NCBI GenBank assembly: GCA_028867145.1
Contig: JAGWGX010000001.1
Location: 27,829 to 91,828 of the forward strand
Direction of reading: 5' to 3'
Source: Candidatus Micrarchaeota archaeon
Lineage (GTDB): Archaea; Micrarchaeota; Micrarchaeia; Micrarchaeales; CABMGC01
DNA length: 64,000 nt
How positions within the stretch are numbered: position 1 is the first letter of the stretch; each line of letters opens with the position of its first letter. The position numbers were made by a program, and so were the translations under genes. The notes under the pieces were generated by a model. The model made no database searches, was not told the DNA's origin, and worked only from the letters and a program-made list of their open reading frames with translations. Positions 25,339 through 47,113 of this stretch are shown piece by piece.

Positions 25339-25367
25339 AACTTTAAATCGTAGAGGTATTGATTAAA

Positions 25368-26582
25368 ATGGCGGAGGGGCAGCTAACCACGACGGGAATC
25401 GATGCGCTTGTCGAGTACCTAAATGCACATGGAGAGACTGAGGAGGGCAAGCTTGCAGCCGAGCTTCAGGTGAGCGAGAAGGTTATCGAGGACTGGTCGA
25501 GCGTCCTTGAGAAGGCAAACGTGGTGAAGATCTCATACAAGGTGGGGAAGATGTTCGTCTCCCCGCTTGACACGACAAAAGTGGACATCCTGACCTACAA
25601 GAGCTCGCTTGACGCAAAGAAGCAGTCCGTGGAGACCGAGCTTGTGGCGGAGATAAACGTGCTCCAGGAGATGGAGAGGCGAATCGCAAACATTTCAAAG
25701 ATAGTCTCTGGCGCGGACGACTCGTTCAAGAAGAACGCCGGCCAGCTAAAAAGGGACCTGGACGAGCTGGAGAGGATACAAAAGGAGAGCGAGAGGCACT
25801 ACAACGGGATAAAGCTCGAGAAGGACAGGATAGACAAGATCTCGGAGACGCTTGGCACCGAGATGAAGGCGCTTGAGGAGATTGCTGGGAGGATACAGAG
25901 CTTTTCGGCGGGGGAGGGGGACGTAAAGAGCGTGATTAGCGACGTAAGGGAGAAGATCAAGAAGTATGACAACTTGACGGCCGAGTTCAACAAGGGATAC
26001 GACCAGCTAGTAAGGCAAAAGCGCGAGGAGATAGTGAGGATCCAGGATGAGACAAAGAGGGAGATGAGGCAGCTCGAGGAGGCGCTTGAGAGGCAGCTAA
26101 AGCAGCTAGGGGAGAACGAGAGGCTTGCAAAGTACGCAAAGCACGAGAGCGCAAGGCTAAAGGACGAGGCTGAGAGGGACAGGACGATGATAGTAAACAA
26201 CCTCGACAAGGCAAAGCAGGGGGTGAACGCCGCGCTTCCGCTCGCGGAGAAGAAGATGGGCGATATTTCAAACAAGGTAATTGAGCTGAGGAAAAATTTC
26301 GGGGAGCTCAGCAACTTAAATGATAATCTAGGCGCGCTGCGCGAGCAGCTTGCAAAGGTGAGGGGCGAGCAGCAGGAGCTCTTCAAGCAGGCGCAGGGAA
26401 TTAGGGGCGAGATAAGGGAGCTTGAGTACGCGAGGAAGTCTGACATCGAGAAGACCAGCGAGGTGCAAAAGCTCAGCAAGAAGGTCTCTGAGCTAAAGGC
26501 AAAGGGAGTGGAGCTTGAGGGCAGCGTGAAGGAGGTAAAGGGGAATGTGGACGCCCTCGCAGGGGAGGGGCCGCAGGTGTGA
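25368..26582 (+). CDS. Long coiled-coil protein with N-terminal winged-helix-like domain
   Basis: The ATG at 25368 is preferred over the TTG at 25359. N-terminal TGIDALVEYLNAHGETEEGKLAAELQVSEKVIEDW, followed by about 330 aa of heptad-rich E/K/R/L sequence. Confidence 0.6.
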   Translation: MAEGQLTTTGIDALVEYLNAHGETEEGKLAAELQVSEKVIEDWSSVLEKANVVKISYKVGKMFVSPLDTTKVDILTYKSSLDAKKQSVETELVAEINVLQEMERRIANISKIVSGADDSFKKNAGQLKRDLDELERIQKESERHYNGIKLEKDRIDKISETLGTEMKALEEIAGRIQSFSAGEGDVKSVISDVREKIKKYDNLTAEFNKGYDQLVRQKREEIVRIQDETKREMRQLEEALERQLKQLGENERLAKYAKHESARLKDEAERDRTMIVNNLDKAKQGVNAALPLAEKKMGDISNKVIELRKNFGELSNLNDNLGALREQLAKVRGEQQELFKQAQGIRGEIRELEYARKSDIEKTSEVQKLSKKVSELKAKGVELEGSVKEVKGNVDALAGEGPQV

Positions 26583-26586
26583 GAGA

Positions 26587-28098
26587 ATGGTGCTTGGTCA
26601 AAACACTTACGAGGAATACCAGCTTGATGCGCACGGGCTCAAGGTCAACATAAAGATTTCCGAGAGCCAAAACGAGTTCGTCCCGTCATATGAGGTGACG
26701 GTGCCGGGGCTTGGCGAGGCAACAAAAATACTTCTTGGGTCCCTAAGGCAGGAGCTCCTCTCGCTTGTCCCGATAGACCCTACGAGGATCGAGGACAAGG
26801 AGTACCTAGACGAGCTAAACGAGAAGTACGTCTCCGCATCGAACCTTGTGATAGACAAGTACCTTCCGAGCACCACGCCAGAGGTGAAGAGGATACTCAT
26901 CGCATACATAATCAACATCATGCTTGGCCTTGGCGACCTTGAGATGCCGCTCTCGGACGACAATCTGGAGGAGATTGTGGTGAACAACTCAAAGGAGCCG
27001 ATCTGGGTCTTCCACAAGAAGTTTGGATGGTGCAAGACGAATGTCAAGATACAGGAGGAGAACCTAATTTACGATGACGCGGAGCAGATCGGGAGGAGGA
27101 TCGGCAGGCAGATCTCAAATCTCTCCCCGCTCATGGACGCGGAGCTACCTGACGGGTCGAGGGTGAATGCGACCCTCTATCCGATCTCCCAAAGGGGGAA
27201 CACGATCACGATAAGAAAGTTCGCAAAGAACCCATGGACCATGCCCGCGATGATAGCAAACAAGACGATCTCAAGCGACATCGCCGCAATACTTTGGATG
27301 TGCGTGGAGAACGAGATCAGCATACTCATCTCGGGAGGAACCGCAAGCGGAAAGACGAGCTTCCTGAACGCGCTCTCGGTCTTCATCCCGGAAAACCACA
27401 GGGTGATCTCTGTCGAGGAGACGCGCGAGCTAACGCTTCCAAGCTTCCTTCACTGGGTTCCGATGGTCACAAGGCAGCCAAACCCAGAGGGTAAGGGAGA
27501 GGTCTCGCTCTACAACTTGATGATAAATGCGCTCAGGCAAAGGCCGGACATCATGCTCATCGGAGAAATCAGGACGGAGAAGGACGCCGAGACGCTCTTC
27601 GAGGCGATCCACACTGGGCACGCGGTGTACGGAACAGTGCACGCGGACAGCGCGCAGGACACGATAATTCGTATGACAAACCCGCCAATCAACATACCAA
27701 AGCTTCTGCTAAACGCAATAGGCTGCGTCGTCACCTTGTTTAGGCATAGGAGGCTTGGGATGAGAAGGGTGCTGGAGTTCGGGGAGATACTAAAGTCAGG
27801 GGACGCGAACGTGATATATCGGTGGAACCTGAGGAGCGACTCGTTCATACAGATCGCGGACCTCTCAAGGCTTGCGGAGATAATGATGCTCTATGGGGGA
27901 TACAACAAGAATGAGATCAACCAGGAGATAAAGGAGAAGGGCGCTGTGCTCGACTGGATGATCGCAAACAGCCTCTTTGACGTCGACAACGTTGGATGGA
28001 TCGTCGCAAACTACTACAAGGACAAGGAGAGCGTGATGCAGGTGGTGAGAAGCAATGCGCCGTACGCGCCTGATCTCTTCAGGAAAAAGGGTGCATGA
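26587..28098 (+). CDS. Type II/IV secretion family ATPase (FlaI/PilB/TadA-like) of a type IV filament system
   Basis: Walker A ISGGTASGKTSFLNAL, Asp box VISVEETREL, Walker B RQRPDIMLIGEIR, His box TGHAVYGTVHA. ATG 26587 lies 4 nt after the upstream stop. Confidence 0.88.
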   Translation: MVLGQNTYEEYQLDAHGLKVNIKISESQNEFVPSYEVTVPGLGEATKILLGSLRQELLSLVPIDPTRIEDKEYLDELNEKYVSASNLVIDKYLPSTTPEVKRILIAYIINIMLGLGDLEMPLSDDNLEEIVVNNSKEPIWVFHKKFGWCKTNVKIQEENLIYDDAEQIGRRIGRQISNLSPLMDAELPDGSRVNATLYPISQRGNTITIRKFAKNPWTMPAMIANKTISSDIAAILWMCVENEISILISGGTASGKTSFLNALSVFIPENHRVISVEETRELTLPSFLHWVPMVTRQPNPEGKGEVSLYNLMINALRQRPDIMLIGEIRTEKDAETLFEAIHTGHAVYGTVHADSAQDTIIRMTNPPINIPKLLLNAIGCVVTLFRHRRLGMRRVLEFGEILKSGDANVIYRWNLRSDSFIQIADLSRLAEIMMLYGGYNKNEINQEIKEKGAVLDWMIANSLFDVDNVGWIVANYYKDKESVMQVVRSNAPYAPDLFRKKGA

Positions 28099-28767
28099 GT
28101 GGAGGGCCAAAACGAGTATGCGAATGTCTCTGAGCTGCTTGAAAAAATAGAAGGGGAAAGGGGGGCAGGGGCGAACGTGCTAATAGACCCGAGCGCGGCT
28201 CTTGCAAACGAGGTCACAATAGAAAGTTACGACTACGACAAGGCGTGCTCCATAATAGGGGGGATAGAGACGGTCGTAATAGAGCAGCAGGCGGCGTCGC
28301 AAAGGCCGCAGATACAGATCCCAAGCGTTAGCGTGAATACGCAGGCAGTCACGCAAACCGCAAGCCAGATAAGGCAGAAGATTGGAGACGCCCAGATACA
28401 AAAGAGGATACTTACCGTGAACAAGGAGATGCTCGATGCCGCGCGCGAGATAGGAGGGATAGTTGGCGGCGCGGGAATGGAGATAGAAAAAAGCATACAG
28501 GAGAGCATCAAAAACGCCAAGGCGAAGAAGCTCATACTGCCAAACCTATCCCTCCAGGACCAAATCGACGAACTTGAGGGCATAAACGAGGGGCTTGACC
28601 AAGGCGCATTTGACGCGCAGCAGCTAAGGATAGTCTCGCAGGAAATAGCGGGGACAAAGGAGGTCGCAAAGGGCCAGAGATTTGATGAATCGCAGGCGGA
28701 GATGGGCCAGCTAAGGGACAAACTACTCCTCGAGATCGGGAATAAGCTTTTAAGCACAAATAATTAA
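28099..28767 (+). CDS. Hypothetical soluble protein in pilus-assembly operon
   Basis: GTG start immediately after the ATPase stop. Q/E/I-rich with no recognised motif. Confidence 0.45.
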   Translation: MEGQNEYANVSELLEKIEGERGAGANVLIDPSAALANEVTIESYDYDKACSIIGGIETVVIEQQAASQRPQIQIPSVSVNTQAVTQTASQIRQKIGDAQIQKRILTVNKEMLDAAREIGGIVGGAGMEIEKSIQESIKNAKAKKLILPNLSLQDQIDELEGINEGLDQGAFDAQQLRIVSQEIAGTKEVAKGQRFDESQAEMGQLRDKLLLEIGNKLLSTNN

Positions 28768-28785
28768 TGAGTAGTGTGAGTTTGG

Positions 28786-29820
28786 ATGGCGGGTGACCAG
28801 CAGGCTAGCAATAATCCTCCCGAGCAGAGCAAGCAGCCGGTCTCCTTCACAAAGCCCAGGAAGTTCCTCTGGTTCAAGCTCAAGTCAAAGCCCGTCTTCA
28901 CCTCCCCGCAAAGCTTCAGCAAGGAGGTGCAAAACATCCAGTCAAAACAAGCAGCTCCGAGCGCGCCAGCAAAGGCGGGACCGCAGGAGAAAAAGTACTC
29001 CGATTTCCAGATTTTCATAGCAAAGACCGCAGCGTCAAGAAAGGACCTTGAGCTCTCGCTAAGGGAGCAAGGGATAAAGTCCACGCCATACGATTTTGTT
29101 AAGAGGATGTTCAAGTACGCTGCCGCAACCGCGATAATCGTGGGGCTTGTCGTCACAATTGCGATGCTTGAGGTGGGGCTCTCGCCGATCTTTGGGCCGC
29201 TGCTTGGGCTTGCGGTCTTCTATGCGCTCTTCAACAAGTTCATAAACTACCCGATTGACAGGAGCAAGAACGTGGGCACGGAGGTGGAAAGGGACATACT
29301 CTTTGCGATGAGGGATATAGTTATCGGGATGCGATCTGGAATGCCGCTATTCAACGCGATGACCGCGGTGAGCACCGGATACGGCGCCGCGAGCAGGGAG
29401 TTTGCGAAGGTGGTCGAGCTAATCCAGCTTGGAACCCCGATCGAGCAGGCAATAGACCAGGTGAGCTCAAAGAGCACCTCAAAGACGTTCAAGAGGATGA
29501 TGCTGCAGGCGAGCGTCAGCATAAGGAGCGGCGCGGACATTGTCGCAGCGCTGCAGGGAGTGCTAGACGAGGTGAGCCAGGAGAGGGTGATTGAGCTCAG
29601 AAGGTACGGTCAGAGGCTAAATGCTCTTGCTATGTTCTACATGCTCTTCGGGGTGATCTTCCCGAGCATGGGAATCGCGGTTGCGGCAATACTCACCACC
29701 TTCATAAACATATTCACAGTCGATCAGACAACGCTGATTGCGGCGCTGATCGGGATCTTTGCGCTGCAGATCATCTTCCTCAATGTGATGAGGACATCAA
29801 GGCCGGTATTTGCGATGTGA
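28786..29820 (+). CDS. T2SSF-domain platform protein (TadB-like half) with disordered K/S/P/Q-rich N-terminus
   Basis: A single T2SSF-like helical bundle (ILFAMRDIVIGMRSGMPLFNAM...GTPIEQAIDQV...IRSGADIVAAL) flanked by TM helices. Confidence 0.7.
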   Translation: MAGDQQASNNPPEQSKQPVSFTKPRKFLWFKLKSKPVFTSPQSFSKEVQNIQSKQAAPSAPAKAGPQEKKYSDFQIFIAKTAASRKDLELSLREQGIKSTPYDFVKRMFKYAAATAIIVGLVVTIAMLEVGLSPIFGPLLGLAVFYALFNKFINYPIDRSKNVGTEVERDILFAMRDIVIGMRSGMPLFNAMTAVSTGYGAASREFAKVVELIQLGTPIEQAIDQVSSKSTSKTFKRMMLQASVSIRSGADIVAALQGVLDEVSQERVIELRRYGQRLNALAMFYMLFGVIFPSMGIAVAAILTTFINIFTVDQTTLIAALIGIFALQIIFLNVMRTSRPVFAM

Positions 29821-29824
29821 TTAA

Positions 29825-30814
29825 ATGGTATCATTCGAGAGGCTAGTATCAAGAAACGTCGCGGTGTTCATCTCGCAGGAGCTAGACCTCGCCGGAATCA
29901 AGACGACTGTCGAGACGTTCATGCAGTTTGCGGCTGTTGGCGGCGTGGGATTCCTTGCTCTCACCGCTTTCTCGCTTGTCCTCATCTACGGGTTTAGCGA
30001 GGGAATCGCGACACTTCTCGGTCTTGGGGTTGCGGTGCTCTACGAGCTCTCAATATACTTTTACCTTGAGTTCATGATAGAGAGGAGGAAGAACTTCATA
30101 GAGGGAATTCTCCCTGATTACCTTCAGATAACAGCTGCAAACGTGAGGAGCGGGATCGCACTAGACAAGGCGATGATCTTTGCCGCAAGGCCTGAGTTCC
30201 TCTACTTTAGCGACGACATAAAGCTGATCACAAAGAACCTATACGCAGGGGAGACGCTGCAAAACTCGCTGCTCCAGCTTGCCAAAAGGTACAGGTCGCT
30301 TCAGCTAAAGCACACAATAAGGATGATCATCGAGGCGCTCCAGTACGGAGGCGGAATGACAGACCTGTTAAACCAGGTTGCGCATGACCTAAGGAACCAG
30401 CAGATCGTCCAAAAGGAGATCTCAGGGCAACTTTTCATGTACACGATCTTCATCGCATTCGCCGCGCTTGTCGGGGCTCCCGTTCTCTACGCGCTGACAA
30501 CGCAGATGATTACAGTCACAAACAGCGTTTGGACAGGGATACTAAAGCAAAATCCAGGCGGACTTCCAACTGCAGGAATCTCGTTCCTCAGGCCAAGCCC
30601 GCCTCAGATAACAATAGCGGCTTACCACAACTTTGCGCTCCTTGCGATAATCATGATCTCGGGGTTCGGAGCCTTCATAGTATCCGCAATCTCAACGGGA
30701 TCGGTGCTCAGGGGAATTAGGTACCTGCCCATTTTCCTGATTGTCGGGCTCTCGGTCTACTTCATAGTGGGAACTGCAATAGGAGGGATCTTCACCTCAA
30801 TTAGCGGCGTATAA
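29825..30814 (+). CDS. T2SSF-domain platform protein (TadC-like half)
   Basis: A single T2SSF-like domain (LPDYLQITAANVRSGIALDKAM...GETLQNSLLQL...LQYGGGMTDLL) with N- and C-terminal TM helices. Confidence 0.7.
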   Translation: MVSFERLVSRNVAVFISQELDLAGIKTTVETFMQFAAVGGVGFLALTAFSLVLIYGFSEGIATLLGLGVAVLYELSIYFYLEFMIERRKNFIEGILPDYLQITAANVRSGIALDKAMIFAARPEFLYFSDDIKLITKNLYAGETLQNSLLQLAKRYRSLQLKHTIRMIIEALQYGGGMTDLLNQVAHDLRNQQIVQKEISGQLFMYTIFIAFAALVGAPVLYALTTQMITVTNSVWTGILKQNPGGLPTAGISFLRPSPPQITIAAYHNFALLAIIMISGFGAFIVSAISTGSVLRGIRYLPIFLIVGLSVYFIVGTAIGGIFTSISGV

Positions 30815-30821
30815 ATAATGT

Positions 30822-32327: not shown

Positions 32328-32415
32328 TTAACCCTTAAGGGGAGTTAAGGTAGAAAAGTATAAAACGATATTGTGATGGAACGCAATCGGAGGAAAGGAA
32401 TTAGGGGAATAGGTA

Positions 32416-32832
32416 TTATTTTAAAATTTTAAGAACGGAAGCCTTGAAGTTCTCAAGATCCTTAAGGTCAGACGCCATTTTGAATACTTCAAAATCATCT
32501 ATATCGGAATAGGCATGGACCAATGCATTCCTGAGCCTTCTCCTCGCGCGAACATTTTCAACAGTCTTGCTTCCAAGGGTGGGCTCAATCGCAGAAATTA
32601 CTGACTCCTCACTACCGACCGGCCTGAGCTCAAGCCCTTTGTGGAGCAGCACAATCACATCAAGCTCAAGCTCGCTGAGCACCTGCAAATACCTCTCCAC
32701 GGCCGCCTTTGTGTACGACTCCGATTTTTTATATTCCGATATGCTTTTTGGGGTTATTTTCTTGAGATTTGAGACATAGTGATCAAACATGGAAATCCTT
32801 GAGATTATGCGCGGCCTGTCCAAGATGTTCAC
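32416..32832 (-). CDS. HEPN-domain (DUF86/HepT-like) toxin
   Basis: Rx4H motif RNALVH within RRRLRNALVHAY. GTGA start/stop overlap with the upstream nucleotidyltransferase gene. Confidence 0.75.
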   Translation of the reverse strand: MNILDRPRIISRISMFDHYVSNLKKITPKSISEYKKSESYTKAAVERYLQVLSELELDVIVLLHKGLELRPVGSEESVISAIEPTLGSKTVENVRARRRLRNALVHAYSDIDDFEVFKMASDLKDLENFKASVLKILK

Positions 32833-33326: not shown

Positions 33327-33391
33327 ATTAGGGATTAAGGGATTAAGATATTTATACCTTTTGATAAAAGACAAAACAGAGCGAGCATACA

Positions 33392-41248: not shown

Positions 41249-41794
41249 TTAGCCAATCCCAAATGACGAATTTGTCCAGATAAAAATTTGCATGTTTGCA
41301 CCCTGCCCGTTTATTACTACCGCCTTGTTTGTGAGCTGCTGGGTCACACCGTTTAGCGCGCTGCCCACGAGTGGTGCGGGCTTCTTTCCTATCGCGAGGT
41401 TGTAGTTGCTTGAGCTAATAACTATGTAGTAGTCAAACGAGACGCCCAGAAGCGGCTTTGTTGCAAGGTAGTTTCCATTTGCCATTGAGAAGAGGGCGTT
41501 TACCTTGTTTTGTGAAAGCACGCCCGTTGCACCGTTTCCTAGCCCCACGGTCAGATTTGACCAGGTAAGAGAGTTAGCAGGGTCTGCAATTGAGTACCAG
41601 TTGCTCGGATAGCCCGTCCCGAGTATCTTTTCAGAGAGGCTCTCGAGCTGCAGCTGCATGCTCTGTATGCTTGTGCCAGTTGAGATTGAGGTCTGCGAAT
41701 TTATGGTGTACCAGACAAACGCCATTAGCGAGACTGCAAAAGTGAAGATGACAATCGCGAAGATTGCGTCAAATGAGAGGAATTGTAGTTTCAT
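41249..41794 (-). CDS. Small pilin-like protein (181 aa)
   Basis: N-terminal MKLQFLSFDAIFAIVIFTFAVSLMAFVWY resembles the N-terminus of the 36055 gene (MKL.F...D.IFA..I). ATGA overlap with the upstream giant gene. Confidence 0.6.
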   Translation of the reverse strand: MKLQFLSFDAIFAIVIFTFAVSLMAFVWYTINSQTSISTGTSIQSMQLQLESLSEKILGTGYPSNWYSIADPANSLTWSNLTVGLGNGATGVLSQNKVNALFSMANGNYLATKPLLGVSFDYYIVISSSNYNLAIGKKPAPLVGSALNGVTQQLTNKAVVINGQGANMQIFIWTNSSFGIG

Positions 41795-44700
41795 GGAGAC
41801 CAGCTCAGCGGAACCGTTGTGGAAACGGAAGGGGGAATCTGTAGATTATATAGCTGCTGTATTTGGGAGGCGCTTAATGCTGTGGCATAGAGCTGAAGGC
41901 TCGAAATGCCCCCATAAAAGGAAGAGTTTGTGGTTGAGCCTCCCGCGGTATTCCCACCTATTTGAACTGCATTCATCGTGTAACCATACATCGTTGAGCA
42001 ACTTCCCGTGGTGCATCCTGCATCTTGGCCATTTATGTAGAGCTTTATGCTTGAGCTGGAAGAATTGTAGGAGTATGCAACTTGATTCCATGAACCTGGA
42101 TTTACAGTCCTAGAACTCAAATTGCATTGGGTTCCCCAATGATCAATATAAATCTTCAATTTTCCAGAGCATGCCGCTCCATTTGCACCTGTCACAGCAA
42201 AAAAGTCGGCGGCACCTGAAAGTCCAGAGCTGAAAATAGGGCTTCCCATTCCCCCATACGCTCTTGGAACATATATCCATGCAACCACACTTCTAGAACC
42301 GGAGATGGTTTGGATAGAATTCACAGATAGATAACTGTTTTGGCCATTGAAATTAATCCCTGAATAGTTGCTTGCTTTTAGCAAATAGGGCACATAATTG
42401 AGAACGCTGTTATACGCCACGTTTGTAGAAGAAATACTGTTTATACCGCTACCTATACTGTAATTGTTCGCATTTCCGTTGAGTGGAAGCCAGCCCGCAA
42501 GCCTTGTTGAGGGAAGCGGAACGCCGGCTATGCCTCCTTGATAAATCTGGAGGGCTTGCTGGGCGCTTATGGTCTGGTTGTATATCTGGATATTCGAGAG
42601 ATTTCCGGAGAACCACCTGTCTGCAGAGTTTGCAAATCCCCTCCCCAAAGTCAGGTTTGCAAAACCTGACGGCCATTTCGTGTTGCTCGCGTTAAACACA
42701 AGGACACCGTTTAGGTACCCAGTTATGGTATTACCATTCCTTGATGACACTACGTTGTACCAGACTTTTTGGCCAATCACATTCGAGTAGGTGTAAACAT
42801 TGTAGTTTCCAGCGCTGGTCCCGACAATCAGGTTGAGGGAATTGGACCCGCCTGAGCCGCCCTGTTCAAAACGCGGCCCTGCATTGTTTGCAGCCGGCAC
42901 GAAGTTGGCATCTAGTGAATTTTTGTAGTTGGTGGTTGCGGTTGAGTTCATCCAGAAGGAAACAGACCAGTTTGAGATGGAGTTTATTTTTGTCACATTT
43001 CCAACTTTGATGTAGCTACTAGCTCCATTAAAAGAGGGAGTAAGTATCTTGCCGATGTTCCCGCTTGAAAGTTGCTGCTTTGAGATGGATGCTGCAAGCG
43101 GCGCAAATGATGTGCTCCCATACATTGAAGCATTGTAAGAATTCCCAGAATAATCGTTTGTGTCGCCGTTTAGTGGGTACCACAGCTGCGCGTTCTGGCC
43201 AGATATTGGAGAGGAGGACAATCCTGCAGCGTAAAGGGATGCGATTTGGATCTGCGAGAGCGAATTGCTGTAGAACTGGTAGTTTGCTATGCCGCCTGAG
43301 TAGGAAAGGCCAGAGCCGCAGTTTGTGAGATCTGGAGTGCCGAGGGGATAGAACATTGCAGTAGTACCTCCTGCCGGAACCTGCCGGGTGTAGGAGATCG
43401 TATTTGTCGATGCGCCGTTTATGTACCCAGTCAGCACTGCGCCATTATAGGTCATCGCTACGTTAGTCCATGTGTTGGTGTTTATCTTTCCAAGAAGCTG
43501 GCATCCCAATGCCCAAATCCTCATGTAAACATTCCCATTTACGAGCTCGAGCCATGAGTCGTGCCAGTTGGTGTTTGGGGCTGTCTGGCCAAGCTCGCTT
43601 AATATCACCCCGCTTGTTGCATTAGGGCGCACCCATAAAGAGATCGTGAATGACTGGGCAGCATTGTCCATAAACACAAACCCAGTTTTCTGTTCTACAT
43701 AGCCAGTCTGCCCGGAAACCCCAAGAGACAAAGGAGCTTGAGAGGATGGAAACTGTGCATAGTAGTTTTGAAGGCTCCACCAAGGCTGTCCGCCAAATGC
43801 GCCGTTATTCTTGTTGCCGCTTATGTCTTGTGCCACACTGCCCTGGCCCAGATTGAGAGGGTACCATGCGGCAAGTAAGGAGCTAGGAAGCGCATTTGAG
43901 TTGAACGCGGTCACCTGGACAAACGCTTGACCATTGTTGCCCTGTTGGTTTAGGAATACCGAAGCGATGCCGTTTGAGTTGGTGTATGTGGATACCACCT
44001 GCCCTGGGCCGCCGTTACCGTTTGTGAGGTTTCCAGCTGTGGTAGTAAAGCCAACCAGCAGATTGTTCACCGCCTGCCCCAATGGGTTCCCGACAGTTGC
44101 AAAGAGCTGCGCTACACTAGTGAATATTATGGAACCAGTGATGACTCCGTTTTTGCCATTACCACCGTAGTCATTTGGATCGCCGTTAAGAGGATACCAG
44201 GCATTTAATCCGCTGTTAGATATTGGGGTGGCGCTTATTCCTCCTTGATAAAGTTGCATAATTTGTTGCGCTGTTAACACTTGGGAGTATATCTGGACGT
44301 TTGCTATCTTGCCATTCCATCTATTGCCTATTCCAGGATATCCTCCAATCCTAAGTGTGTTGGAAGGATTAAGTGTTACGGAGAAGCTTTGAGAGTATAC
44401 TAGCGTGCCATTCTTATACAGCTTTGCGGTTGTGCCATCATAGGTCAAAACAAAGAAGTACCAGTTGTTGTAGGAAATCTGTGTCTGCGCTGTGCATGTA
44501 TTGCCATCCCCCTGGTTATTTATCCAAAATGTCACATAGGTAGGATTTCCAAGCCCCGCGGCACAGGTTTGCAAGGTGTATCCAGAGTTGGTAGTAGAGA
44601 CTATTGTTGGAAAGCTGGGTATCGTACCTGTTGGCGATATCCATACCGCAGCACTGAAGGTAGTAGTGCCAGGAGTTATTCCATTATTTGCATCAATATA

Positions 44701-45249
44701 GCTGCTAACGCCGTCGAAATTTGCTGCATGCACAGTCTGAGTGGAAAGTGAGACAGATGCGCTAACATTTGCGTTTGTCGGGCACTGATAGTCAATGCAG
44801 ATTGTTCCGAACGAATTCTGCAATGAAATAGTGCCGTTTGCAATAGGCAAAACGTAGAGCGTGTTGCCTATTCCGTAAAAGCTTGCGCTTGAGCTCACCG
44901 ATTGCACATTGCTGTACGCTGTTGCTCGCATGATCTGCGTCCCGCTGGTCGCGGCGATTATAACAAGGCCTCCCTTTGTGACCGAGACGTTGTAGGGAAT
45001 GTTTCCGATGCTGGTTGTGATTGGAAGCTGCGCGCTGAATCCGGTTCCCGCCTGCGCTGCCCTGTTTATTTGGAGCGCAATTGTCTGCGCGACAAGCTGT
45101 AGCTGAGAGAAGGTCTGCGAATTCTGCGTGATTGCCCTTTGCTGGGTGATCAATGCGAAGAGGAAGAGGAAGACCACGAGTATGAATGCGAAGACTATCA
45201 TGAACTCGATGGAGATTTGTCCCTTCTTTTTATTTGATTCTTGAAACAT
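41791..45249 (-). CDS. Giant pilin-like protein (1152 aa) with class III signal and multiple LamG-type modules
   Basis: N-terminal NKKKGQISIEFMIVFAFILVVFLFLFALI (KGQ-x-S-x-E-F type). Junction/LamG-entry motifs WYPLNGDPNDYGGNGKNG, WYPLNLGQGSVAQDISGNKNNG, WYPLNGDTNDYSGNSYN and WLPLNGNANNYS. Confidence 0.75.
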   Translation of the reverse strand: MFQESNKKKGQISIEFMIVFAFILVVFLFLFALITQQRAITQNSQTFSQLQLVAQTIALQINRAAQAGTGFSAQLPITTSIGNIPYNVSVTKGGLVIIAATSGTQIMRATAYSNVQSVSSSASFYGIGNTLYVLPIANGTISLQNSFGTICIDYQCPTNANVSASVSLSTQTVHAANFDGVSSYIDANNGITPGTTTFSAAVWISPTGTIPSFPTIVSTTNSGYTLQTCAAGLGNPTYVTFWINNQGDGNTCTAQTQISYNNWYFFVLTYDGTTAKLYKNGTLVYSQSFSVTLNPSNTLRIGGYPGIGNRWNGKIANVQIYSQVLTAQQIMQLYQGGISATPISNSGLNAWYPLNGDPNDYGGNGKNGVITGSIIFTSVAQLFATVGNPLGQAVNNLLVGFTTTAGNLTNGNGGPGQVVSTYTNSNGIASVFLNQQGNNGQAFVQVTAFNSNALPSSLLAAWYPLNLGQGSVAQDISGNKNNGAFGGQPWWSLQNYYAQFPSSQAPLSLGVSGQTGYVEQKTGFVFMDNAAQSFTISLWVRPNATSGVILSELGQTAPNTNWHDSWLELVNGNVYMRIWALGCQLLGKINTNTWTNVAMTYNGAVLTGYINGASTNTISYTRQVPAGGTTAMFYPLGTPDLTNCGSGLSYSGGIANYQFYSNSLSQIQIASLYAAGLSSSPISGQNAQLWYPLNGDTNDYSGNSYNASMYGSTSFAPLAASISKQQLSSGNIGKILTPSFNGASSYIKVGNVTKINSISNWSVSFWMNSTATTNYKNSLDANFVPAANNAGPRFEQGGSGGSNSLNLIVGTSAGNYNVYTYSNVIGQKVWYNVVSSRNGNTITGYLNGVLVFNASNTKWPSGFANLTLGRGFANSADRWFSGNLSNIQIYNQTISAQQALQIYQGGIAGVPLPSTRLAGWLPLNGNANNYSIGSGINSISSTNVAYNSVLNYVPYLLKASNYSGINFNGQNSYLSVNSIQTISGSRSVVAWIYVPRAYGGMGSPIFSSGLSGAADFFAVTGANGAACSGKLKIYIDHWGTQCNLSSRTVNPGSWNQVAYSYNSSSSSIKLYINGQDAGCTTGSCSTMYGYTMNAVQIGGNTAGGSTTNSSFYGGISSLQLYATALSASQIQQLYNLQIPPSVSTTVPLSWSP

Positions 45250-45255
45250 AATTGC

Positions 45256-46536
45256 TCATCTCTCCTTCAGCAGCCATTTCACCGCAGGAACAAATGATAT
45301 CTCCTTTTCATCTATTCTTTCCACAGATTCATATTCGTATGTGACTATGGTGCCGCGTTTTAGCTTGAATTTCTTGAGCGCGTTCACAAGTGCGCTCACT
45401 TCCTTGTCTTTTCTGCCATCAAATGCATACGATACCTGTATTGCATCGGTAACTTTTATGCCCCTTTTTACAAGGAAATCTACCTCGTTGCCGCTCCCGT
45501 CCACCCAATAGGAGATGCTCTCATTGAGCCTAAGACGCCTGGCAAGATTGATGTAAACTATATTTTCCAGTGCGGAGCCCTTGTCTTCAAGCGGATTGGT
45601 GGAGACCTGCCGCGCGAGTGCATGGTCAATGACATAAATCTTGCGCGGCGCTACTGCCGCATCGGCTGCCGAGGTAGAATGCTTGTTCACGGCAAATACA
45701 AGATACGAATCCATGGCGTAGTCCACAAACTTTTTTACGGTGTTCTTGCTCCCGATCTTGAAGACGTTGCCCATTTTCCCATAGGACATGCGCTTGCCGT
45801 AAAGGTTTAGCAGGTAAAAAATGAATTCCTCAAAGGCCCTTTTGTCCCTTATTGAATACCTCATCATTATGTCCCTTGATATGATGTCGTGAAGGTACTG
45901 CAGCAGTATCTCCCCTCTCTTTGAGGAGAACGCCTCGGGGAAGCCTCCAAACTGGAGATAATTTTTGAAAGTGGACTTGAGTTTTGCTGAGCCTTCCGTG
46001 GTATATTTATTTGCAGTGGGCGCAAGCTCCGAAAAGGAGAACGGAAACTCCACGAAAAGCATGTTGCGCCCCGTGAGAGCCGTGGACACCTCAGATCTCA
46101 GCAAACTCGCATTGCTTCCGGTCAGGTATATTTTCACATCCTCGAATTCATACATTCGGTTTGCCCATTTTTCCCAGCTCTTAATGTTTTGTATTTCATC
46201 CAGGAAAAGGAATACCTTGCCTTTTGGGGAGTGCAGCTGCAAAAACAGCTCGTACAACCTTTGGAAATCTTCGGAGGAGAATGTGCTTAGCCGTTCATCC
46301 TCGAAGTTAAGGTAAAGAATGTTGTCCTCACCAACCCCCTCCTTAAGAAGATGCCTTATAAGCTGCAACAGAAGAGTGGATTTGCCACACCTCCTGACTC
46401 CTGAGATTATAACCATCTCCCTGCTAGCGGACTCTTTGAGAAGCCTGTGGAGCATCTCACGTTCTATGCCTGCATGCTTTAGCAGCAATTTTTGCCGCTG
46501 ATCTTCCATTACAAACTTTAGCTGTTCTTCCTGCAC
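45256..46536 (-). CDS. AAA+ ATPase of the COG1373 type (AAA_14 + DUF4143-like)
   Basis: Walker A ISGVRRCGKSTLL and Walker B FLFLDEIQN. C-terminal EVDFLV block typical of the DUF4143/PD-(D/E)xK-like tail. The start is GTG 46536 or ATG 46509. Confidence 0.7.
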   Translation of the reverse strand: MQEEQLKFVMEDQRQKLLLKHAGIEREMLHRLLKESASREMVIISGVRRCGKSTLLLQLIRHLLKEGVGEDNILYLNFEDERLSTFSSEDFQRLYELFLQLHSPKGKVFLFLDEIQNIKSWEKWANRMYEFEDVKIYLTGSNASLLRSEVSTALTGRNMLFVEFPFSFSELAPTANKYTTEGSAKLKSTFKNYLQFGGFPEAFSSKRGEILLQYLHDIISRDIMMRYSIRDKRAFEEFIFYLLNLYGKRMSYGKMGNVFKIGSKNTVKKFVDYAMDSYLVFAVNKHSTSAADAAVAPRKIYVIDHALARQVSTNPLEDKGSALENIVYINLARRLRLNESISYWVDGSGNEVDFLVKRGIKVTDAIQVSYAFDGRKDKEVSALVNALKKFKLKRGTIVTYEYESVERIDEKEISFVPAVKWLLKER

Positions 46537-46567
46537 GTTTGTCTTATAAAACTCAAGCCTTTTAAAT

Positions 46568-46615
46568 GTTCAGTTTAGTGAACGAAATAGGGCGGTTTCG
46601 TTCAGTTCAGTGAAC
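46568..46615. promoter_or_regulatory. Two 16-bp palindromes (GTTCAGTTYAGTGAAC) 32 bp apart, together forming a larger near-palindrome
   Basis: GTTCAGTTTAGTGAAC at 46568..46583 and GTTCAGTTCAGTGAAC at 46600..46615. The inner arms GAACGAAA/TTTCGTTC are also complementary. The element lies between the pilin-like gene stop and the AAA ATPase start, next to TTTAAA. Confidence 0.5.
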
Positions 46616-46639
46616 ACTTTCTAAAAGCGATTCTAGGTT

Positions 46640-47113
46640 TTACACCGCAGGTTTCATGTAGACGCATGGCAGGCTGGTCTGGAATGGGCACTGCTGCTGC
46701 GCGGACACGTTGATGAGATAGGTTCCCGTGGAGGCGATGCTCCCAAGGTTGCCGCTCACATTGAGCGGGGTGTATGCAGTGATGTAGCTAAGCCCGGTTG
46801 GAGACCTCACCACAAACACAATCGAGTGACCAACCCCGTTTGAGAGCGTCCCAACGTATATGTACTGGACCCCAGTCGGCATTGTTATCTGAACAATCTG
46901 CTTTGCAGGCGGCCCCTGGCTCCCCACAATCGCCGCCGCGCTCACAAGCTTTGATGCAGCCTGCTGCGCCGCGACGGATGAGACCGCGGAATTTGCATTG
47001 GCTAGCTGTATGAATGCGAAGACGACGAGCGGAAGGAGTATCGCAAGTCCGAAAGAGAGCGTTATTAGTAGCTCGAAGCTTGACTGGAGCTTTAGGTTTG
47101 GTTTGCTATTCAT
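46640..47113 (-). CDS. Small pilin-like protein (157 aa) with class III signal peptide
   Basis: N-terminal KPNLKLQSSFELLITLSFGLAILLPLVVFAFI. ATGA overlap with the upstream CBS gene. Confidence 0.7.
   Translation of the reverse strand: MNSKPNLKLQSSFELLITLSFGLAILLPLVVFAFIQLANANSAVSSVAAQQAASKLVSAAAIVGSQGPPAKQIVQITMPTGVQYIYVGTLSNGVGHSIVFVVRSPTGLSYITAYTPLNVSGNLGSIASTGTYLINVSAQQQCPFQTSLPCVYMKPAV

What the first reader, a model, noticed from the sequence alone, without database searches (positions are those of the whole stretch)
25368..47113. Tad/Epd-like type IV filament locus with split platform genes and seven pilin-like genes in several transcription units
The plus-strand operon runs in this order:
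- A coiled-coil wHTH protein.
- A FlaI/TadA-type ATPase with all four motifs present.
- An unknown 222-aa protein.
- Two separate single-T2SSF-domain membrane proteins, a TadB/TadC-like split. Most archaeal PilC/FlaJ homologues are instead one two-domain protein.

Converging on it, the minus strand carries seven genes whose products start with class III or pilin-like hydrophobic N-termini. The N-terminal sequences are QSSIEFLLTYSWA, QSATEYILTYGWA, KGQISIEFMIVFAF, LQSSFELLITLSFG, KKGLFMTILILVLF, and two of the MKL.F...D.IFA..I type.

These genes are interspersed with a toxin-antitoxin pair and an AAA ATPase. No prepilin peptidase (PibD/EppA/FlaK), archaellin, FlaH or FlaCDE is present in the window. 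This therefore looks like an adhesion-type filament, not an archaellum. The number and size of the pilin-like proteins (157 to 1152 aa) are unusual.
Basis: partly seen in the sequence, partly recalled or inferred. Interest (0 to 1): 0.75.

Follow-up and report, generated by a model that had tools for sequence, protein, structure and literature searches.

The report
Micrarchaeota type IV pilus adhesin locus
This is a real type IV pilus gene cluster of a tiny symbiotic archaeon (Micrarchaeota), whose pilin-like proteins carry large sugar-binding-type domains that probably help it stick to its host; the cluster is shared by most relatives and has already been noted in the literature.

Summary
The plus strand encodes a coiled-coil protein, a GspE/FlaI-family ATPase with all four motifs, a 222-aa unknown and two single-T2SSF platform proteins. 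Seven minus-strand genes begin with class III-like N-termini. The window has no prepilin peptidase, archaellin, FlaH or FlaCDE.

The organism is a Micrarchaeota (DPANN) archaeon. The locus is not unusual for that lineage:
- ATPase followed by two T2SSF genes was found in 66 of 71 DPANN loci with enough sequence.
- The coiled-coil gene was found upstream of the ATPase in 44 of 44 Micrarchaeota loci.
- The convergent adhesin block was found in 20 of 25 Micrarchaeota loci.
- Five pilin-like genes (157, 1152, 181, 738, 890 aa) keep the same order across DPANN phyla. In Micrarchaeota three of them carry LamG or beta-propeller modules.
- The 501-aa and 778-aa genes, the HepT/MNT pair and the AAA_14 ATPase are variable insertions.

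Best reading: an adhesion-type archaeal type IV pilus with modular lectin pilins, probably for attaching to the host. "Tad/Epd-like" is only partly right. The split platform and Q(+1) signals fit. The ATPase's closest solved relative is afGspE. There is also no Flp-sized pilin, TadZ/FlaH or EppA.

Golyshina 2017 and Hamm 2024 already describe such loci, so this is a new member of a known kind.

The parts
25359..26582 (+). Coiled-coil protein (407 aa; first ATG at 25368). It has a conserved ~70-aa N-terminal domain and a poorly conserved coiled coil, with no TM segment. It is the counterpart of the 'CCP' genes of DPANN T4P loci.
   Evidence: Pfam and NCBIfam gave only coiled-coil-type and sub-threshold HTH hits. 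A homolog lies upstream of the ATPase in 44 of 44 Micrarchaeota loci with room, and in some Woese- and Aenigmatarchaeota loci. N-terminal conservation. Hamm 2024 describes CCP genes in such loci.
26587..28098 (+). Pilus assembly ATPase of the GspE/FlaI/CpaF (T2SSE) family, 503 aa. The ORF opens at 26545, but homologs start at the MVLGQ-equivalent position.
   Evidence: PF00437 E=2.3e-33, plus a weak PilB3_C hit. Walker A 250-257, Asp box 273-281, Walker B 317-329, His box 340-352. PDB: afGspE 2oap 1.9e-69, FlaI 1e-56, CpaF 6.5e-48. The 120 best of 7758 homologs at E<=1e-20 are 64-92% identical, and nearly all that carry a source name are labelled Micrarchaeota.
28099..28767 (+). 222-aa cytoplasmic protein of unknown function. 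Homologs were detected only in Micrarchaeota loci. It has a conserved C-terminal segment (LILPNLSLQDQIDELEG).
   Evidence: No family hit even at E<=10 beyond noise. A homolog lies between the ATPase and the platform genes in 33 of 44 Micrarchaeota loci and in none of the other DPANN loci. Conservation profile.
28786..29820 (+). Platform protein a (344 aa) with a single T2SSF domain (residues 175-299).
   Evidence: PF00482 E=3.2e-14. It is 25% identical to the second platform protein (BLASTP E=2e-4). Conserved in 40 of 44 Micrarchaeota and 26 of 27 other DPANN loci.
29825..30814 (+). Platform protein b (329 aa) with a single T2SSF domain (residues 101-224).
   Evidence: PF00482 E=6.7e-14. Synteny as for platform protein a.
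30822..32327 (-). 501-aa modular 'TYGWA-type' pilin-like protein (MSIQL|QSSIEFLLTYSWA) with a Ser/Thr-rich linker. It is a strain-variable insertion.
   Evidence: Motif. No Pfam domain. 35% S+T and 4% charged residues. Absent at this position in L001, L003 and L004. Its N-terminal module resembles the small TYGWA pilins of other DPANN.
32416..33425 (-). HepT (32416-32832) and MNT nucleotidyltransferase (32829-33425) toxin-antitoxin pair. It is inserted in the locus and is not part of the machinery.
   Evidence: PF01934 E=8.3e-13; PF18765 E=5.8e-14. Absent at this position in relatives.
33392..36064 (-). 890-aa pilin-like adhesin (KKG|LFMTILIL...) with two LamG_3 domains. It is the last gene of the conserved five-pilin set.
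   Evidence: PF13385 E=2.1e-39, 2 stretches. Orthologs of 852-1547 aa with [KR][GA]|x[LM]MT N-termini in Micrarchaeota. Counterparts of 319-428 aa (342 aa in L074) sit at the same operon position in other DPANN.
36055..38256 (-). ~733-aa pilin-like adhesin (MKL|VIFTLDSIFAL) with a PQQ-type beta-propeller and one LamG_3 domain. The ORF opens at TTG 38271; the likely start is ATG 38256.
   Evidence: PF13360 E=1.2e-16 and PF13385 E=1.1e-16. Start codon and an upstream TTTAATAA box. Family N-terminus K[GAL]|xxFTxD in 20 Micrarchaeota orthologs. Same motif and operon position in other DPANN.
38702..41038 (-). 778-aa modular 'TYGWA-type' pilin-like protein (KKV|QSATEYILTYGWA) with Big_1, an InlB B-repeat, a Ser/Thr linker and a Gly-rich C-terminus. 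It is a strain-variable insertion.
   Evidence: PF18998 E=2.9e-8; Big_1 1.3e-5, below cut-off. Absent at this position in L001, L003 and L004. Its N-terminal module matches the small 133-189-aa pilins encoded next to the platform genes in 17 other DPANN loci.
41249..41794 (-). 181-aa pilin-like protein (MKL|QFLSFDAIFA), a conserved minor-pilin candidate.
   Evidence: 24 homologs. Q4, F5, S7, D9, F12 and A13 are invariant. Relatives have basic leaders of up to about 17 residues before the same Q. AF2 model: pLDDT 82.4, helix 2-58 plus an alpha/beta head. No significant PDB fold match.
41791..45249 (-). 1152-aa modular pilin (KKG|QISIEFMIVFAF) with four LamG_3 domains.
   Evidence: PF13385 E=2.1e-67, 4 stretches. 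Sub-threshold Class_IIIsignal (16.5 bits against 23.7) and TadF hits at residues 6-38. Its N-terminal module matches stand-alone 129-137-aa pilins in other DPANN. Micrarchaeota orthologs start [KR][GLSI]|QI[SA][IL]E[FY].
45256..46536 (-). AAA_14 + DUF4143 ATPase. It is an insertion that is probably unrelated to the pilus.
   Evidence: PF13173 E=6.8e-37 and PF13635 E=3.2e-19. In L004 it sits at a different position, between the 1125-aa and 179-aa genes. It is absent from L001 and L003.
46640..47113 (-). 157-aa pilin (KL|QSSFELLITLSFG). It is the first gene of the five-pilin set and the best in-window candidate for the main filament subunit.
   Evidence: 216 homologs, the best 120 at 60-92% identity. 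Q10-L16, C142 and C150 are invariant. Position -2 is K/R in 95%; position -1 is L/A/G/S/I/M. AF2 model: pLDDT 85.8, helix 10-66 plus a six-strand head. No significant PDB fold match.
47110..48270 (-). CBS-pair protein (386 aa) whose stop overlaps the start of the 157-aa pilin gene by 4 nt. It is a conserved neighbour and a possible regulator.
   Evidence: PF00571 E=5.2e-26. The same adjacency is seen in L004 and L042.

Best explanation
The locus encodes an adhesion-type archaeal type IV pilus of a Micrarchaeota (DPANN) symbiont.

Proposed mechanism:
1. A prepilin peptidase encoded elsewhere in the genome removes the short basic leader of the pilin-like proteins. Cleavage is just before the conserved Q, or before the first hydrophobic residue. 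This step is inferred.
2. The hexameric GspE/FlaI-family ATPase works on a platform made of two single-T2SSF proteins. Together they lift the pilins out of the membrane by their N-terminal helices and polymerise them. This is inferred from homology.
3. The five genes kept in the same order across DPANN (157, 1152, 181, 738, 890 aa) supply the filament subunits. One is a small, highly conserved subunit, which is either the main pilin or an initiator. The other four are accessory pilins that probably start assembly and end up at the tip.
4. In Micrarchaeota three of those four accessory pilins have acquired LamG (concanavalin-A-like lectin) domains. One of these also carries a beta-propeller. 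The tip would therefore display a multi-lectin array that binds glycans or proteins on the host (wall-less Thermoplasmatales) or in the biofilm matrix. This step is inferred.
5. The 501-aa and 778-aa proteins are strain-specific modular pilins of the 'TYGWA' family and add alternative adhesive modules.
6. The coiled-coil protein and the 222-aa protein are cytoplasmic accessory factors of unknown role.
7. The HepT/MNT pair and the AAA_14 ATPase are unrelated insertions.
For: Core machinery is shown by family hits and motifs.

Class III-like N-termini:
- The Q(+1)/E(+5) motif occurs 4 times against 0.13 expected, only at N-termini in this block.
- In the 157-aa family QSSFELL is invariant. K/R is at -2 in 95% of 119 sequences, and leader length varies from 3 to 21 residues.
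- The 181-, 738-, 890- and 1152-aa families each keep [KR][small] followed by a conserved hydrophobic motif.

Pilin-like shape: AF2 models of the 157-aa and 181-aa proteins have a 57-residue N-terminal helix and a globular head, with pLDDT 85.8 and 82.4.

Genetic linkage:
- ATPase followed by two T2SSF genes is present in 40 of 44 Micrarchaeota and 26 of 27 other DPANN loci. The convergent adhesin block is present in 20 of 25.
- In Woese-, Aenigmat-, Iain- and Nanohaloarchaeota the homologous or positionally equivalent pilin genes lie in the same order directly upstream of the ATPase in one operon.

Extracellular character: the seven proteins have 3-7% charged residues, against 23-37% for the cytoplasmic proteins of the locus.

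Adhesin modules: 7 LamG_3 domains and a PQQ-type propeller.

Evolution rate against the closest relative:
- Machinery: ATPase 90%, platform b 88%.
- Adhesins: 890-aa 63%, 738-aa 48%, about 39% over the 222 residues of the 1152-aa protein held in that locus.
- The 157-aa pilin stays at 83-92% in close relatives.

Precedents:
- LamG proteins linked to T4P loci in Mia14, and one FlaK-like peptidase encoded elsewhere (Golyshina 2017).
- Modular pilins with PF13385 in bacteria (Raynaud 2021).
Against: - No filament, processing or binding has been shown for any member of this locus family.
- No prepilin peptidase is in the window, and I could not search the rest of the genome.
- The -1 residue before the conserved Q is Leu in this window (Val in the 778-aa protein) and L/I/M/S in most Micrarchaeota homologs. 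Known prepilin peptidases prefer G/A/S there (my own recollection of the PibD work, not checked here).
- The 501-aa protein has no basic residue in its leader.
- Foldseek found no significant similarity of either model to solved pilins.
- Pfam's Class_IIIsignal hit is below threshold.
- Which protein is the major subunit is open. In other DPANN the small TYGWA pilins next to the platform genes are equally good candidates.
- In the cultured relative A_DKE, cryo-ET filaments at the contact site were reported not to penetrate the Micrarchaeon's S-layer and were ascribed to the host (Krause 2022).
Confidence: 0.62

Rival explanations
1. This is a bindosome-like or pseudopilus display system. The ATPase and platform build only a short stub or membrane-proximal scaffold. 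The class III N-termini serve to insert and organise large binding proteins (LamG, propeller) at the cell surface under or within the S-layer, rather than on a long pilus.
For: Most of the pilin-like proteins are huge binding-domain proteins, not small subunits. Sivabalasarma & Albers 2026 argue that class III-signal binding proteins widely 'functionalise' archaeal TFF machineries. Cryo-ET of A_DKE reported no Micrarchaeon-derived filaments.
Against: A small, very conserved subunit with a pilin-like predicted shape is part of the set. LamG_3 modules are a frequent graft on true bacterial pilins. The binding domains are lectin or adhesin types, not solute-binding proteins with an adjacent ABC transporter, and none is in the window.
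Confidence: 0.2
2. The N-termini are plain signal anchors. The LamG and propeller proteins are ordinary membrane-anchored surface adhesins that merely neighbour an ATPase/platform module whose true substrates lie elsewhere.
For: A loose class III rule also matches ordinary anchors elsewhere in the window. The -1 residues are non-canonical. The Pfam class III signal hit is sub-threshold. Makarova 2016 notes that ATPase/TadC modules can act on pilins encoded in trans.
Against: The Q(+1)/E(+5) or D(+6) signatures are conserved, with a basic residue at -2 and leaders of variable length, across hundreds of homologs. The gene order of the five-gene set is conserved next to the ATPase across DPANN phyla, co-directional in one operon outside Micrarchaeota.
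Confidence: 0.1
3. The machinery serves exchange of DNA or other macromolecules with the host (a competence- or conjugation-like role) rather than adhesion as such.
For: Golyshina 2017 speculated that T4P could mediate DNA exchange between Mia14 and its host. Type IV filaments take up DNA in bacteria.
Against: No DNA-binding, nuclease, ComEC-like or Ced-like component is in the locus. The domains present are lectin or adhesin types. The only HerA/TraG-like ATPase in the window lies 17 kb away in a separate cluster.
Confidence: 0.06
4. It is an archaellum (motility) locus.
For: Some database sources label homologous ATPases 'FlaI'.
Against: The NCBIfam FlaI model scores 257.7 bits against a 550-bit cut-off. 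No archaellin, FlaH, FlaF/G or FlaCDE/X was found in the window or in syntenic loci. The platform is split, and FlaI aligns only over residues 68-403.
Confidence: 0.01

Closest known systems
Type IV pilus loci of 'Candidatus Mancarchaeum acidiphilum' Mia14 (Micrarchaeota), Golyshina et al. 2017, PMC5498576
   Same: Same phylum. [quoted passage not shown] The conserved core here has 9 genes from the coiled-coil gene to the 1152-aa gene. [quoted passage not shown]
   Different: I could not map the window onto a specific Mia14 locus. Mia14 was not among the 80 loci returned, and the supplement did not list those genes. The paper does not describe the five-pilin order, the N-terminal motifs or the insertions.
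Conserved T4P + coiled-coil-protein (CCP) loci of cluster 2 DPANN, Hamm et al. 2024, PMC11291902
   Same: A CpaF-like ATPase, TadC-type platform and an adjacent coiled-coil protein, with pilin genes (annotated FlaF, PilA) in the same locus. My loci from Woese-, Aenigmat-, Nanohalo-, Nano- and Iainarchaeota show ATPase homologs at 44-49% identity, followed by two T2SSF genes.
   Different: That paper reports the loci for cluster 2 DPANN and Undinarchaeota. Here the same module is in Micrarchaeota. The pilin block is inverted to converge on the ATPase operon. There is an extra 222-aa gene, and LamG or propeller modules are grafted onto three pilins.
Epd pilus of Methanococcus maripaludis and bacterial Tad pili ('Epd-like' clade of Denise et al. 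2019; clade/system 1 of Makarova 2016 and Sivabalasarma & Albers 2026)
   Same: Two contiguous platform genes with one T2SSF domain each. Class III signals with Q at +1 and an acidic residue at +5. Multiple accessory pilins and adhesin-like proteins. System 1 is reported in DPANN.
   Different: No Flp-sized pilin lacking a globular domain. No TadZ/FlaH/MinD-type ATPase. No EppA in the window. The gene order differs. The Tad ATPase CpaF is the weakest of the three solved relatives. ATPase phylogeny was not done.
Euryarchaeal clade 2 T4P (Archaeoglobus afGspE, PDB 2OAP; Haloferax PilB3/PilC3 with PilA pilins)
   Same: afGspE is the closest solved ATPase (237.9 bits, aligned over residues 8-485 including the C-terminal domain). 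There is a weak PilB3_C hit. Large adhesin-like proteins occur in the loci, and Makarova 2016 notes two tadC-like genes in many clade 2 loci.
   Different: Sivabalasarma & Albers 2026 describe system 2 as having a single platform gene. The pilin families here were not matched to PilA. That afGspE belongs to clade 2 is my inference, not a tested result.
Bacterial modular pilins and the minor-pilin/PilY1 tip complex (Streptococcus sanguinis PilB/PilC; Raynaud et al. 2021, PMC8179133)
   Same: An N-terminal pilin module carries a grafted functional module. PF13385 (concanavalin-A-like lectin) is one of the frequent grafts. Such pilins are thought to sit at the tip. [quoted passage not shown] Here there are four conserved accessory pilins, three with LamG, and one of these also with a propeller.
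   Different: The resemblance is analogy of design, not shown homology. The signal is an archaeal class III signal rather than the bacterial IPR012902 motif. There are up to four LamG domains per protein, and the propeller is fused to a pilin module rather than being a separate PilY1.
Sulfolobus bindosome (class III signal on sugar-binding proteins; BasE ATPase)
   Same: Large binding proteins with class III-type N-termini depend on a T4P-like ATPase and platform.
   Different: The NCBIfam BasE model scores 140.8 bits against a cut-off of 1000. The cargo domains are lectin or adhesin types, not solute-binding proteins, and no ABC transporter is linked.

Membership tests
Archaeal type IV pilus / type IV filament superfamily | Secretion ATPase of the GspE/VirB11/FlaI family with Walker A, Asp box, Walker B and His box | tested here: met
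   PF00437 E=2.3e-33. Motifs at residues 250-257, 273-281, 317-329 and 340-352. PDB relatives: afGspE, FlaI, CpaF.
Archaeal type IV pilus / type IV filament superfamily | Polytopic membrane platform protein with T2SSF domain(s) encoded next to the ATPase | tested here: met
   Two genes, each with one PF00482 domain (E=3.2e-14 and 6.7e-14). Conserved in 66 of 71 DPANN loci with room.
Archaeal type IV pilus / type IV filament superfamily | Filament subunit(s) with a class III signal peptide: short basic leader, cleavage site, about 20 hydrophobic residues | tested here: inconclusive
   Motif and conservation fit, and the AF2 shapes are pilin-like. However, Pfam PF04021 is below threshold (16.5 against 23.7 bits), position -1 is often L/I/M/V, and Foldseek finds no solved pilin. 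Processing was not tested.
Archaeal type IV pilus / type IV filament superfamily | Class III signal (prepilin) peptidase of family A24 in the genome | not testable with these tools
   None in the 64-kb window. The rest of the genome could not be searched. In Mia14 the single FlaK-like peptidase is encoded away from the pilus loci.
Epd-like / Tad group (Denise et al. 2019) | Two contiguous platform genes, each with a single T2SSF domain (fission of the two-domain gene) | tested here: met
   Definition.
Epd-like / Tad group (Denise et al. 2019) | Short major pilin without a globular domain (Flp/EpdE-like) | tested here: not met
   No ORF of 35-110 aa with a class III-like start in the window, apart from one spurious antisense hit. 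The smallest pilin is 157 aa with a six-strand head. A short pilin elsewhere in the genome is not excluded.
Epd-like / Tad group (Denise et al. 2019) | Secondary ATPase (TadZ / FlaH / MinD-like) next to the main ATPase, with the two platform genes contiguous with the ATPases | tested here: not met
   No ParA/MinD/KaiC-type protein in the locus. The order here is coiled-coil gene, ATPase, 222-aa gene, then the two platform genes. The AAA_14/DUF4143 ATPase is a movable insertion.
Epd-like / Tad group (Denise et al. 2019) | Dedicated 9-TM EppA-type peptidase and Q at +1 of the pilins | tested here: inconclusive
   Q(+1) is present in 5 of 7 proteins. No EppA is in the window: the 9-TM ORF 1576-2832 has no A24 hit even at E<=10.
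Epd-like / Tad group (Denise et al. 2019) | ATPase and platform fall in the Epd/Tad clade in a phylogeny | not tested
   No Epd reference sequences could be obtained. The indirect signal argues against it: CpaF 166.9 bits, below FlaI 195.9 and afGspE 237.9.
Archaellum | FlaI orthologue plus archaellins, FlaH, FlaF/G, FlaJ and FlaCDE or FlaX | tested here: not met
   The FlaI equivalog model scores 257.7 bits against a 550-bit cut-off. No archaellum family was found in the window or in syntenic loci.
DPANN conserved T4P-CCP locus (Hamm et al. 2024) | CpaF-like ATPase + TadC platform + adjacent coiled-coil protein, with pilin genes in the locus | tested here: met
   Description of the family. 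Membership is by architecture and by 44-49% ATPase identity to cluster 2 DPANN loci.
Modular type IV pilins (Raynaud et al. 2021) | N-terminal pilin module fused to a functional module not specific to pilus biology (e.g. PF13385) | tested here: met
   The 1152-aa protein has an N-terminal module homologous to stand-alone 129-137-aa DPANN pilins, followed by four PF13385 domains. The 890-, 738-, 778- and 501-aa proteins are built likewise. The bacterial IPR012902 motif is not applicable.

The most novel reading that the evidence does not exclude
Micrarchaeota have rebuilt the DPANN-wide five-pilin set into a giant multi-lectin tip complex. This complex, made of the 1152-, 890- and 738-aa modular pilins plus the 181-aa pilin, would be the primary determinant of host recognition. 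Their prepilin peptidase would have a relaxed or shifted specificity that accepts Leu/Ile/Met at -1 and reads the Q(+1) instead. The fast-evolving LamG arrays and the strain-specific TYGWA modular pilins would then set host range. The filaments seen at Micrarchaeon-host contact sites could be these pili rather than host structures.
Probability: 0.3. Interest if true: 0.65.

Novelty: new member of a known kind. Interest (0 to 1): 0.4.

Why it matters
How DPANN archaea find and hold on to their hosts is an open question, and this locus is one of the best genomic candidates in Micrarchaeota.

The analysis gives concrete handles for experiments:
- A small, very conserved subunit to raise antibodies against.
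- Four conserved accessory pilins in a fixed order.
- Defined LamG modules to test on host glycans.
- A cultured strain that carries the same locus: Ca. [quoted passage not shown] It also cautions against over-reading:
- The split platform and the many large pilin-like genes are lineage-typical, not exceptional.
- FlaFind-type rules that demand G/A at -1 (as I recall them) would miss most of these proteins.

Tried and rejected
- Fold searches. Foldseek of both AF2 models against the PDB gave only noise (best E 0.037 and 0.0097, ribosomal proteins). Structural homology to solved pilins is therefore not shown.
- Naming the ATPase's clade.
  - The genome scan returned only DPANN loci.
  - The 1.84-billion-representative search carries no names.
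  - A cluster look-up of 10 hits named only one, an Altiarchaeota protein.
  - The Epd versus clade 2 question therefore stays open.
- The Mia14 supplement did not list the relevant locus tags.
- The exact-sequence look-up of the 100%-identical NCBI protein (KGH53_00325) found no contig on record.
- Peptidase search. I considered the 9-TM ORF 1576-2832 and the 7-TM ORF 2829-3905 (which has an AGGD motif) as hidden EppA or FlaK. Neither has any A24 hit even at E<=10, so both were rejected.
- The sigma-70 promoter and terminator scan was at background level and is not applicable to archaea.
- The ARAGORN tRNA-Thr inside the 890-aa ORF was rejected as a false positive.
- Archaeosortase link. None of the pilin-like proteins ends in a TM or basic tail (sequences), so there is no support for one.
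- The papers on the cultured strain A_DKE do not mention pili.

Full report
**What is there**

Plus strand:
- A 407-aa coiled-coil protein (25359-26582; first ATG at 25368).
- A T2SSE-family ATPase (ORF 26545-28098). Homologs of 500-506 aa indicate a start at 26587.
- A 222-aa protein with no family hit (28099-28767).
- Two membrane proteins with one T2SSF domain each (28786-29820 and 29825-30814; PF00482 E=3.2e-14 and 6.7e-14).

The ATPase has Walker A, Asp box, Walker B and His box.

Converging on this operon, the minus strand carries seven genes whose N-termini are exactly as quoted. They are interrupted by a HepT/MNT toxin-antitoxin pair and an AAA_14+DUF4143 ATPase.

The motif Q-[SITA]-[SAT]-x-E-[FYLM]-[LIMV] occurs four times in the six-frame translation of the whole window. 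Every occurrence is at the N-terminus of one of these genes. First-order Markov random sequences gave 0.13 on average.

Pfam scans of the other window ORFs of 110 aa or more found no Peptidase_A24, archaellin, FlaH or FlaCDE. The unannotated polytopic membrane proteins were scanned at E<=10.

Small corrections:
- The 'wHTH' is unproven. There are only sub-threshold HTH hits and a conserved 70-residue N-terminal domain.
- The 738-aa ORF most likely starts at ATG 38256. This gives MKLVIFTLD..., parallel to MKLQFLSFD... of the 181-aa protein.
- The 501-aa protein has no basic residue in its leader.

**Whose genome**

The ATPase has thousands of homologs. The best 120 are 64-92% identical, and nearly all that carry a source name are labelled Candidatus Micrarchaeota or Micrarchaeia. 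A protein 100% identical to the 181-aa product is an NCBI MAG protein of 'Candidatus Micrarchaeota archaeon' (KGH53_00325). The window is therefore from a DPANN archaeon of the ARMAN/Micrarchaeota group.

**Is the locus special? Synteny**

Gene neighbourhoods of ATPase and pilin homologs and 80 loci from a scan of one genome per species were compared with the window proteins by BLASTP.

In Micrarchaeota:
- The coiled-coil gene precedes the ATPase in 44 of 44 loci with enough upstream sequence.
- Both T2SSF genes follow the ATPase in 40 of 44.
- The 222-aa gene is detectable in 33 of 44.
- A convergent block of 890-, 738-, 181- and 1152-aa homologs follows in 20 of 25.

In other DPANN phyla (Aenigmat-, Woese-, Nanohalo-, Iain- and Nanoarchaeota) the ATPase is 44-49% identical, and the ATPase + two T2SSF arrangement holds in 26 of 27 loci.

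In relatives the pilin block is one compact operon: CBS protein, 157, 1152, 181, 738, 890.

These window genes are absent or differently placed in relatives, so they are insertions:
- the 501-aa gene plus HepT/MNT;
- the 778-aa gene;
- the AAA_14 ATPase.

This explains the 'several transcription units'.

**A five-pilin set conserved across DPANN**

In Woese-, Aenigmat- and Iainarchaeota loci there is an operon directly upstream of the ATPase and co-directional with it, in this order (Nanohaloarchaea locus L066 shows only a partial set on the opposite strand):
1. A 141-153-aa protein homologous to the 157-aa protein ([KR][AG]|Q-x-S-x-E-[FY]).
2. A 119-148-aa protein homologous to the N-terminus of the 1152-aa protein.
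3. A 157-177-aa protein like the 181-aa protein ([KR][AGS]|Q...D).
4. A 608-927-aa protein starting K[AG]|xFF[ST]xD, like the 738-aa family.
5. A 319-428-aa protein starting KKG|xFFT, like the 890-aa family.

This is the same order as on the window's minus strand. Micrarchaeota have therefore inverted the block. They have also enlarged members 2 and 5 with LamG_3 domains: four in the 1152-aa protein and two in the 890-aa protein. Member 4 carries a PQQ-type propeller plus one LamG in Micrarchaeota.

The 501-aa and 778-aa proteins belong to another family, Q-[SA]-[AS]-x-E-[FY]-L-x-T-Y-G-W. In other DPANN this family consists of small (133-189 aa) pilins next to the platform genes, often in two copies (17 loci). 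In Micrarchaeota it is sporadic and often enlarged.

**Are they pilins?**

For:
- The 157-aa family (216 homologs) has invariant QSSFELL, and K/R at -2 in 95% of sequences. Leader length varies from 3 to 21 residues, and two Cys near the C-terminus are invariant.
- The 181-aa family has invariant Q4, F5, S7, D9, F12 and A13. Relatives carry basic leaders of up to about 17 residues before the same Q.
- AlphaFold2 models of both proteins show a 57-residue N-terminal helix followed by a compact head, with pLDDT 85.8 and 82.4.
- All seven proteins have only 3-7% charged residues, against 23-37% in the cytoplasmic proteins of the locus. This fits extracellular proteins (my interpretation; I think it also suggests an acidophile).

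Against or open:
- Foldseek found no significant PDB match for either model.
- Pfam's Class_IIIsignal and TadF hits on the 1152-aa protein are sub-threshold.
- The residue before the conserved Q is L (48%), A, G, S, I or M in Micrarchaeota, whereas it is G or A in other DPANN.
- No processing has been shown.
- A loose class III rule also matches ordinary anchors elsewhere in the window. For the 890-aa and 738-aa proteins the argument rests on conserved family motifs and operon position.

**Which known system**

The ATPase is not an archaellum FlaI (257.7 bits against the 550-bit cut-off). It is not a Tad-type TIGR03819 member (178.8 against 373) and not BasE (140.8 against 1000).

Its best solved relative is Archaeoglobus afGspE (237.9 bits, aligned over residues 8-485 including the C-terminal domain). 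FlaI follows (195.9 bits, residues 68-403 only), then the Tad ATPase CpaF (166.9 bits). A weak PilB3_C hit points the same way.

What the literature says about split platforms:
- Denise et al. 2019 take two single-T2SSF platform genes as the shared hallmark of Epd-like and Tad systems. Other hallmarks are short pilins and a TadZ/FlaH partner.
- Makarova et al. 2016 note two tadC genes in clade 1 and in many clade 2 loci.
- Sivabalasarma & Albers 2026 assign two platform genes to system 1, found in methanogens and DPANN, and to some DPANN 4A loci. They assign large adhesins to system 2.

The window thus mixes features:
- Epd-like: the split platform and Q(+1) signals.
- Not Epd-like: no Flp-sized pilin, no second ATPase, no EppA, a different gene order, and an ATPase that looks more like afGspE.

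I could not obtain Epd reference sequences to settle this by phylogeny.

**Prior knowledge**

- Golyshina et al. 2017 described two T4P loci in the Micrarchaeon Mia14, LamG-like proteins linked to them, a single FlaK-like peptidase elsewhere, and conservation across Micrarchaea.
- Hamm et al. 2024 described conserved DPANN loci with CpaF, TadC, pilins and an adjacent coiled-coil protein, some of them detected by proteomics.
- Raynaud et al. 2021 showed that bacterial 'modular pilins' with grafted PF13385 lectin modules are widespread and probably tip-located. PilY1 adhesins carry a propeller and are thought to be presented by a tip complex of four conserved minor pilins.

The locus is therefore a well-preserved member of a known kind.

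Points I did not find stated in these papers:
- the fixed five-pilin order across DPANN;
- the inversion of the block and the LamG grafting in Micrarchaeota;
- the Micrarchaeota-specific 222-aa gene;
- the non-canonical -1 residues.

**Mechanism proposed**

1. Leader removal by a peptidase encoded elsewhere (inferred).
2. Extraction and polymerisation of pilins by the ATPase on a two-protein platform (by homology).
3. Initiation by the four accessory pilins, which then form the tip and display lectin and propeller modules for binding host or matrix glycans (inferred).
4. The 157-aa protein acts as main subunit or initiator. This is open, because small TYGWA pilins elsewhere in the genome are an alternative.

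Divergence against the closest relative fits a conserved machine with fast-evolving contact surfaces:
- ATPase 90%, platform b 88%, 181-aa 78%;
- 890-aa 63%, 738-aa 48%, 1152-aa about 39% over the 222 residues held in that locus;
- the 157-aa pilin stays at 83-92% in close relatives.

The cultured Ca. Micrarchaeum harzensis A_DKE carries the locus (L028). Cryo-ET of its co-culture showed filaments at the contact sites. They were ascribed to the host and said not to penetrate the Micrarchaeon's S-layer. That paper and the S-layer preprint on the strain do not mention pili. The model can be tested in that system.

**Verdict**

Novelty: new member of a known kind. Interest is moderate.

Noticed in passing
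window 96-12448 (+): A separate gene cluster. It contains a PKD-domain membrane protein (96-1592) and three polytopic membrane proteins with no family hit (1576-5062). It also has two unknowns, a HerA/DUF87/AAA_10/TraG-P-loop ATPase (6827-8335) and a 792-aa N-terminally anchored protein (10070-12448, KKRG|IAIIAV). It could be a second membrane translocation or conjugation-like system.
   Followed up: partly
window 49598-51112 (+): An exosortase/archaeosortase-like protein (PF09721 E=5.6e-13) lies close to the pilin block. It is also a near neighbour in the distant relative L004. None of the pilin-like proteins has a C-terminal TM or basic sorting tail, so its substrates are elsewhere.
   Followed up: partly
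window 46640-47113, 41249-41794, 38702-41038, 36055-38256; loci L001-L054: The residue before the conserved Q or first hydrophobic residue of the class III-like signal varies by lineage. In Micrarchaeota it is Leu, Ile, Met, Val or Ser in many proteins (157-aa family: L 57, A 29, G 16, S 11, I 4, M 2). In other DPANN phyla it is G or A. Standard FlaFind-type rules, as I recall them, would miss these proteins. It hints at a peptidase with altered specificity.
   Followed up: partly
window 23246-23306 (+): A weak tRNA-like match (Rfam RF00005, 30 bits against a gathering score of 29). It has an almost absent D arm and mismatches in the acceptor stem, and ARAGORN did not call it. It could be a degenerate or fragmentary tRNA.
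   Followed up: partly
window 34679-34757 (-): ARAGORN calls a tRNA-Thr(GGT) inside the conserved 890-aa LamG ORF. Infernal/Rfam does not see it, so it is probably a false positive.
   Followed up: yes
window 47110-48270 (-) and L004, L042: A CBS-pair protein gene overlaps the start of the 157-aa pilin gene by 4 nt. It is its upstream neighbour in distant relatives too. It may be a regulator co-translated with the pilin.
   Followed up: no
window 38272-38701: A 430-bp stretch between the 778-aa and 738-aa genes has no ORF over 52 aa and no Rfam hit. A TTTAATAA box lies about 27 nt upstream of ATG 38256 and is a likely archaeal promoter for the 738/890 unit.
   Followed up: partly
homologs P0265-P0414 of the ATPase: Many distant homologs of the ATPase in the 50%-identity representative library are 1000-1400 aa. 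Their match to the query is split in two around query residues 246-309, near Walker A. This suggests intein-like insertions in DPANN or related pilus ATPases.
   Followed up: no
window 23395-25338 (+) and loci L001, L003, L007-L051: Three consecutive TrkA_N-domain genes lie next to the coiled-coil/ATPase operon in most Micrarchaeota loci, in either orientation. No functional link is known.
   Followed up: no
L028 (Ca. Micrarchaeum sp. A_DKE, NZ_CP060530.1 402767-424257): The cultured Micrarchaeon carries the same locus: coiled-coil gene, ATPase, 210-aa gene, two T2SSF genes, and convergent 1102-, 629- and 189-aa genes. The two publications on the strain that I searched do not mention pili, and one ascribes contact-site filaments to the host.
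   Followed up: partly
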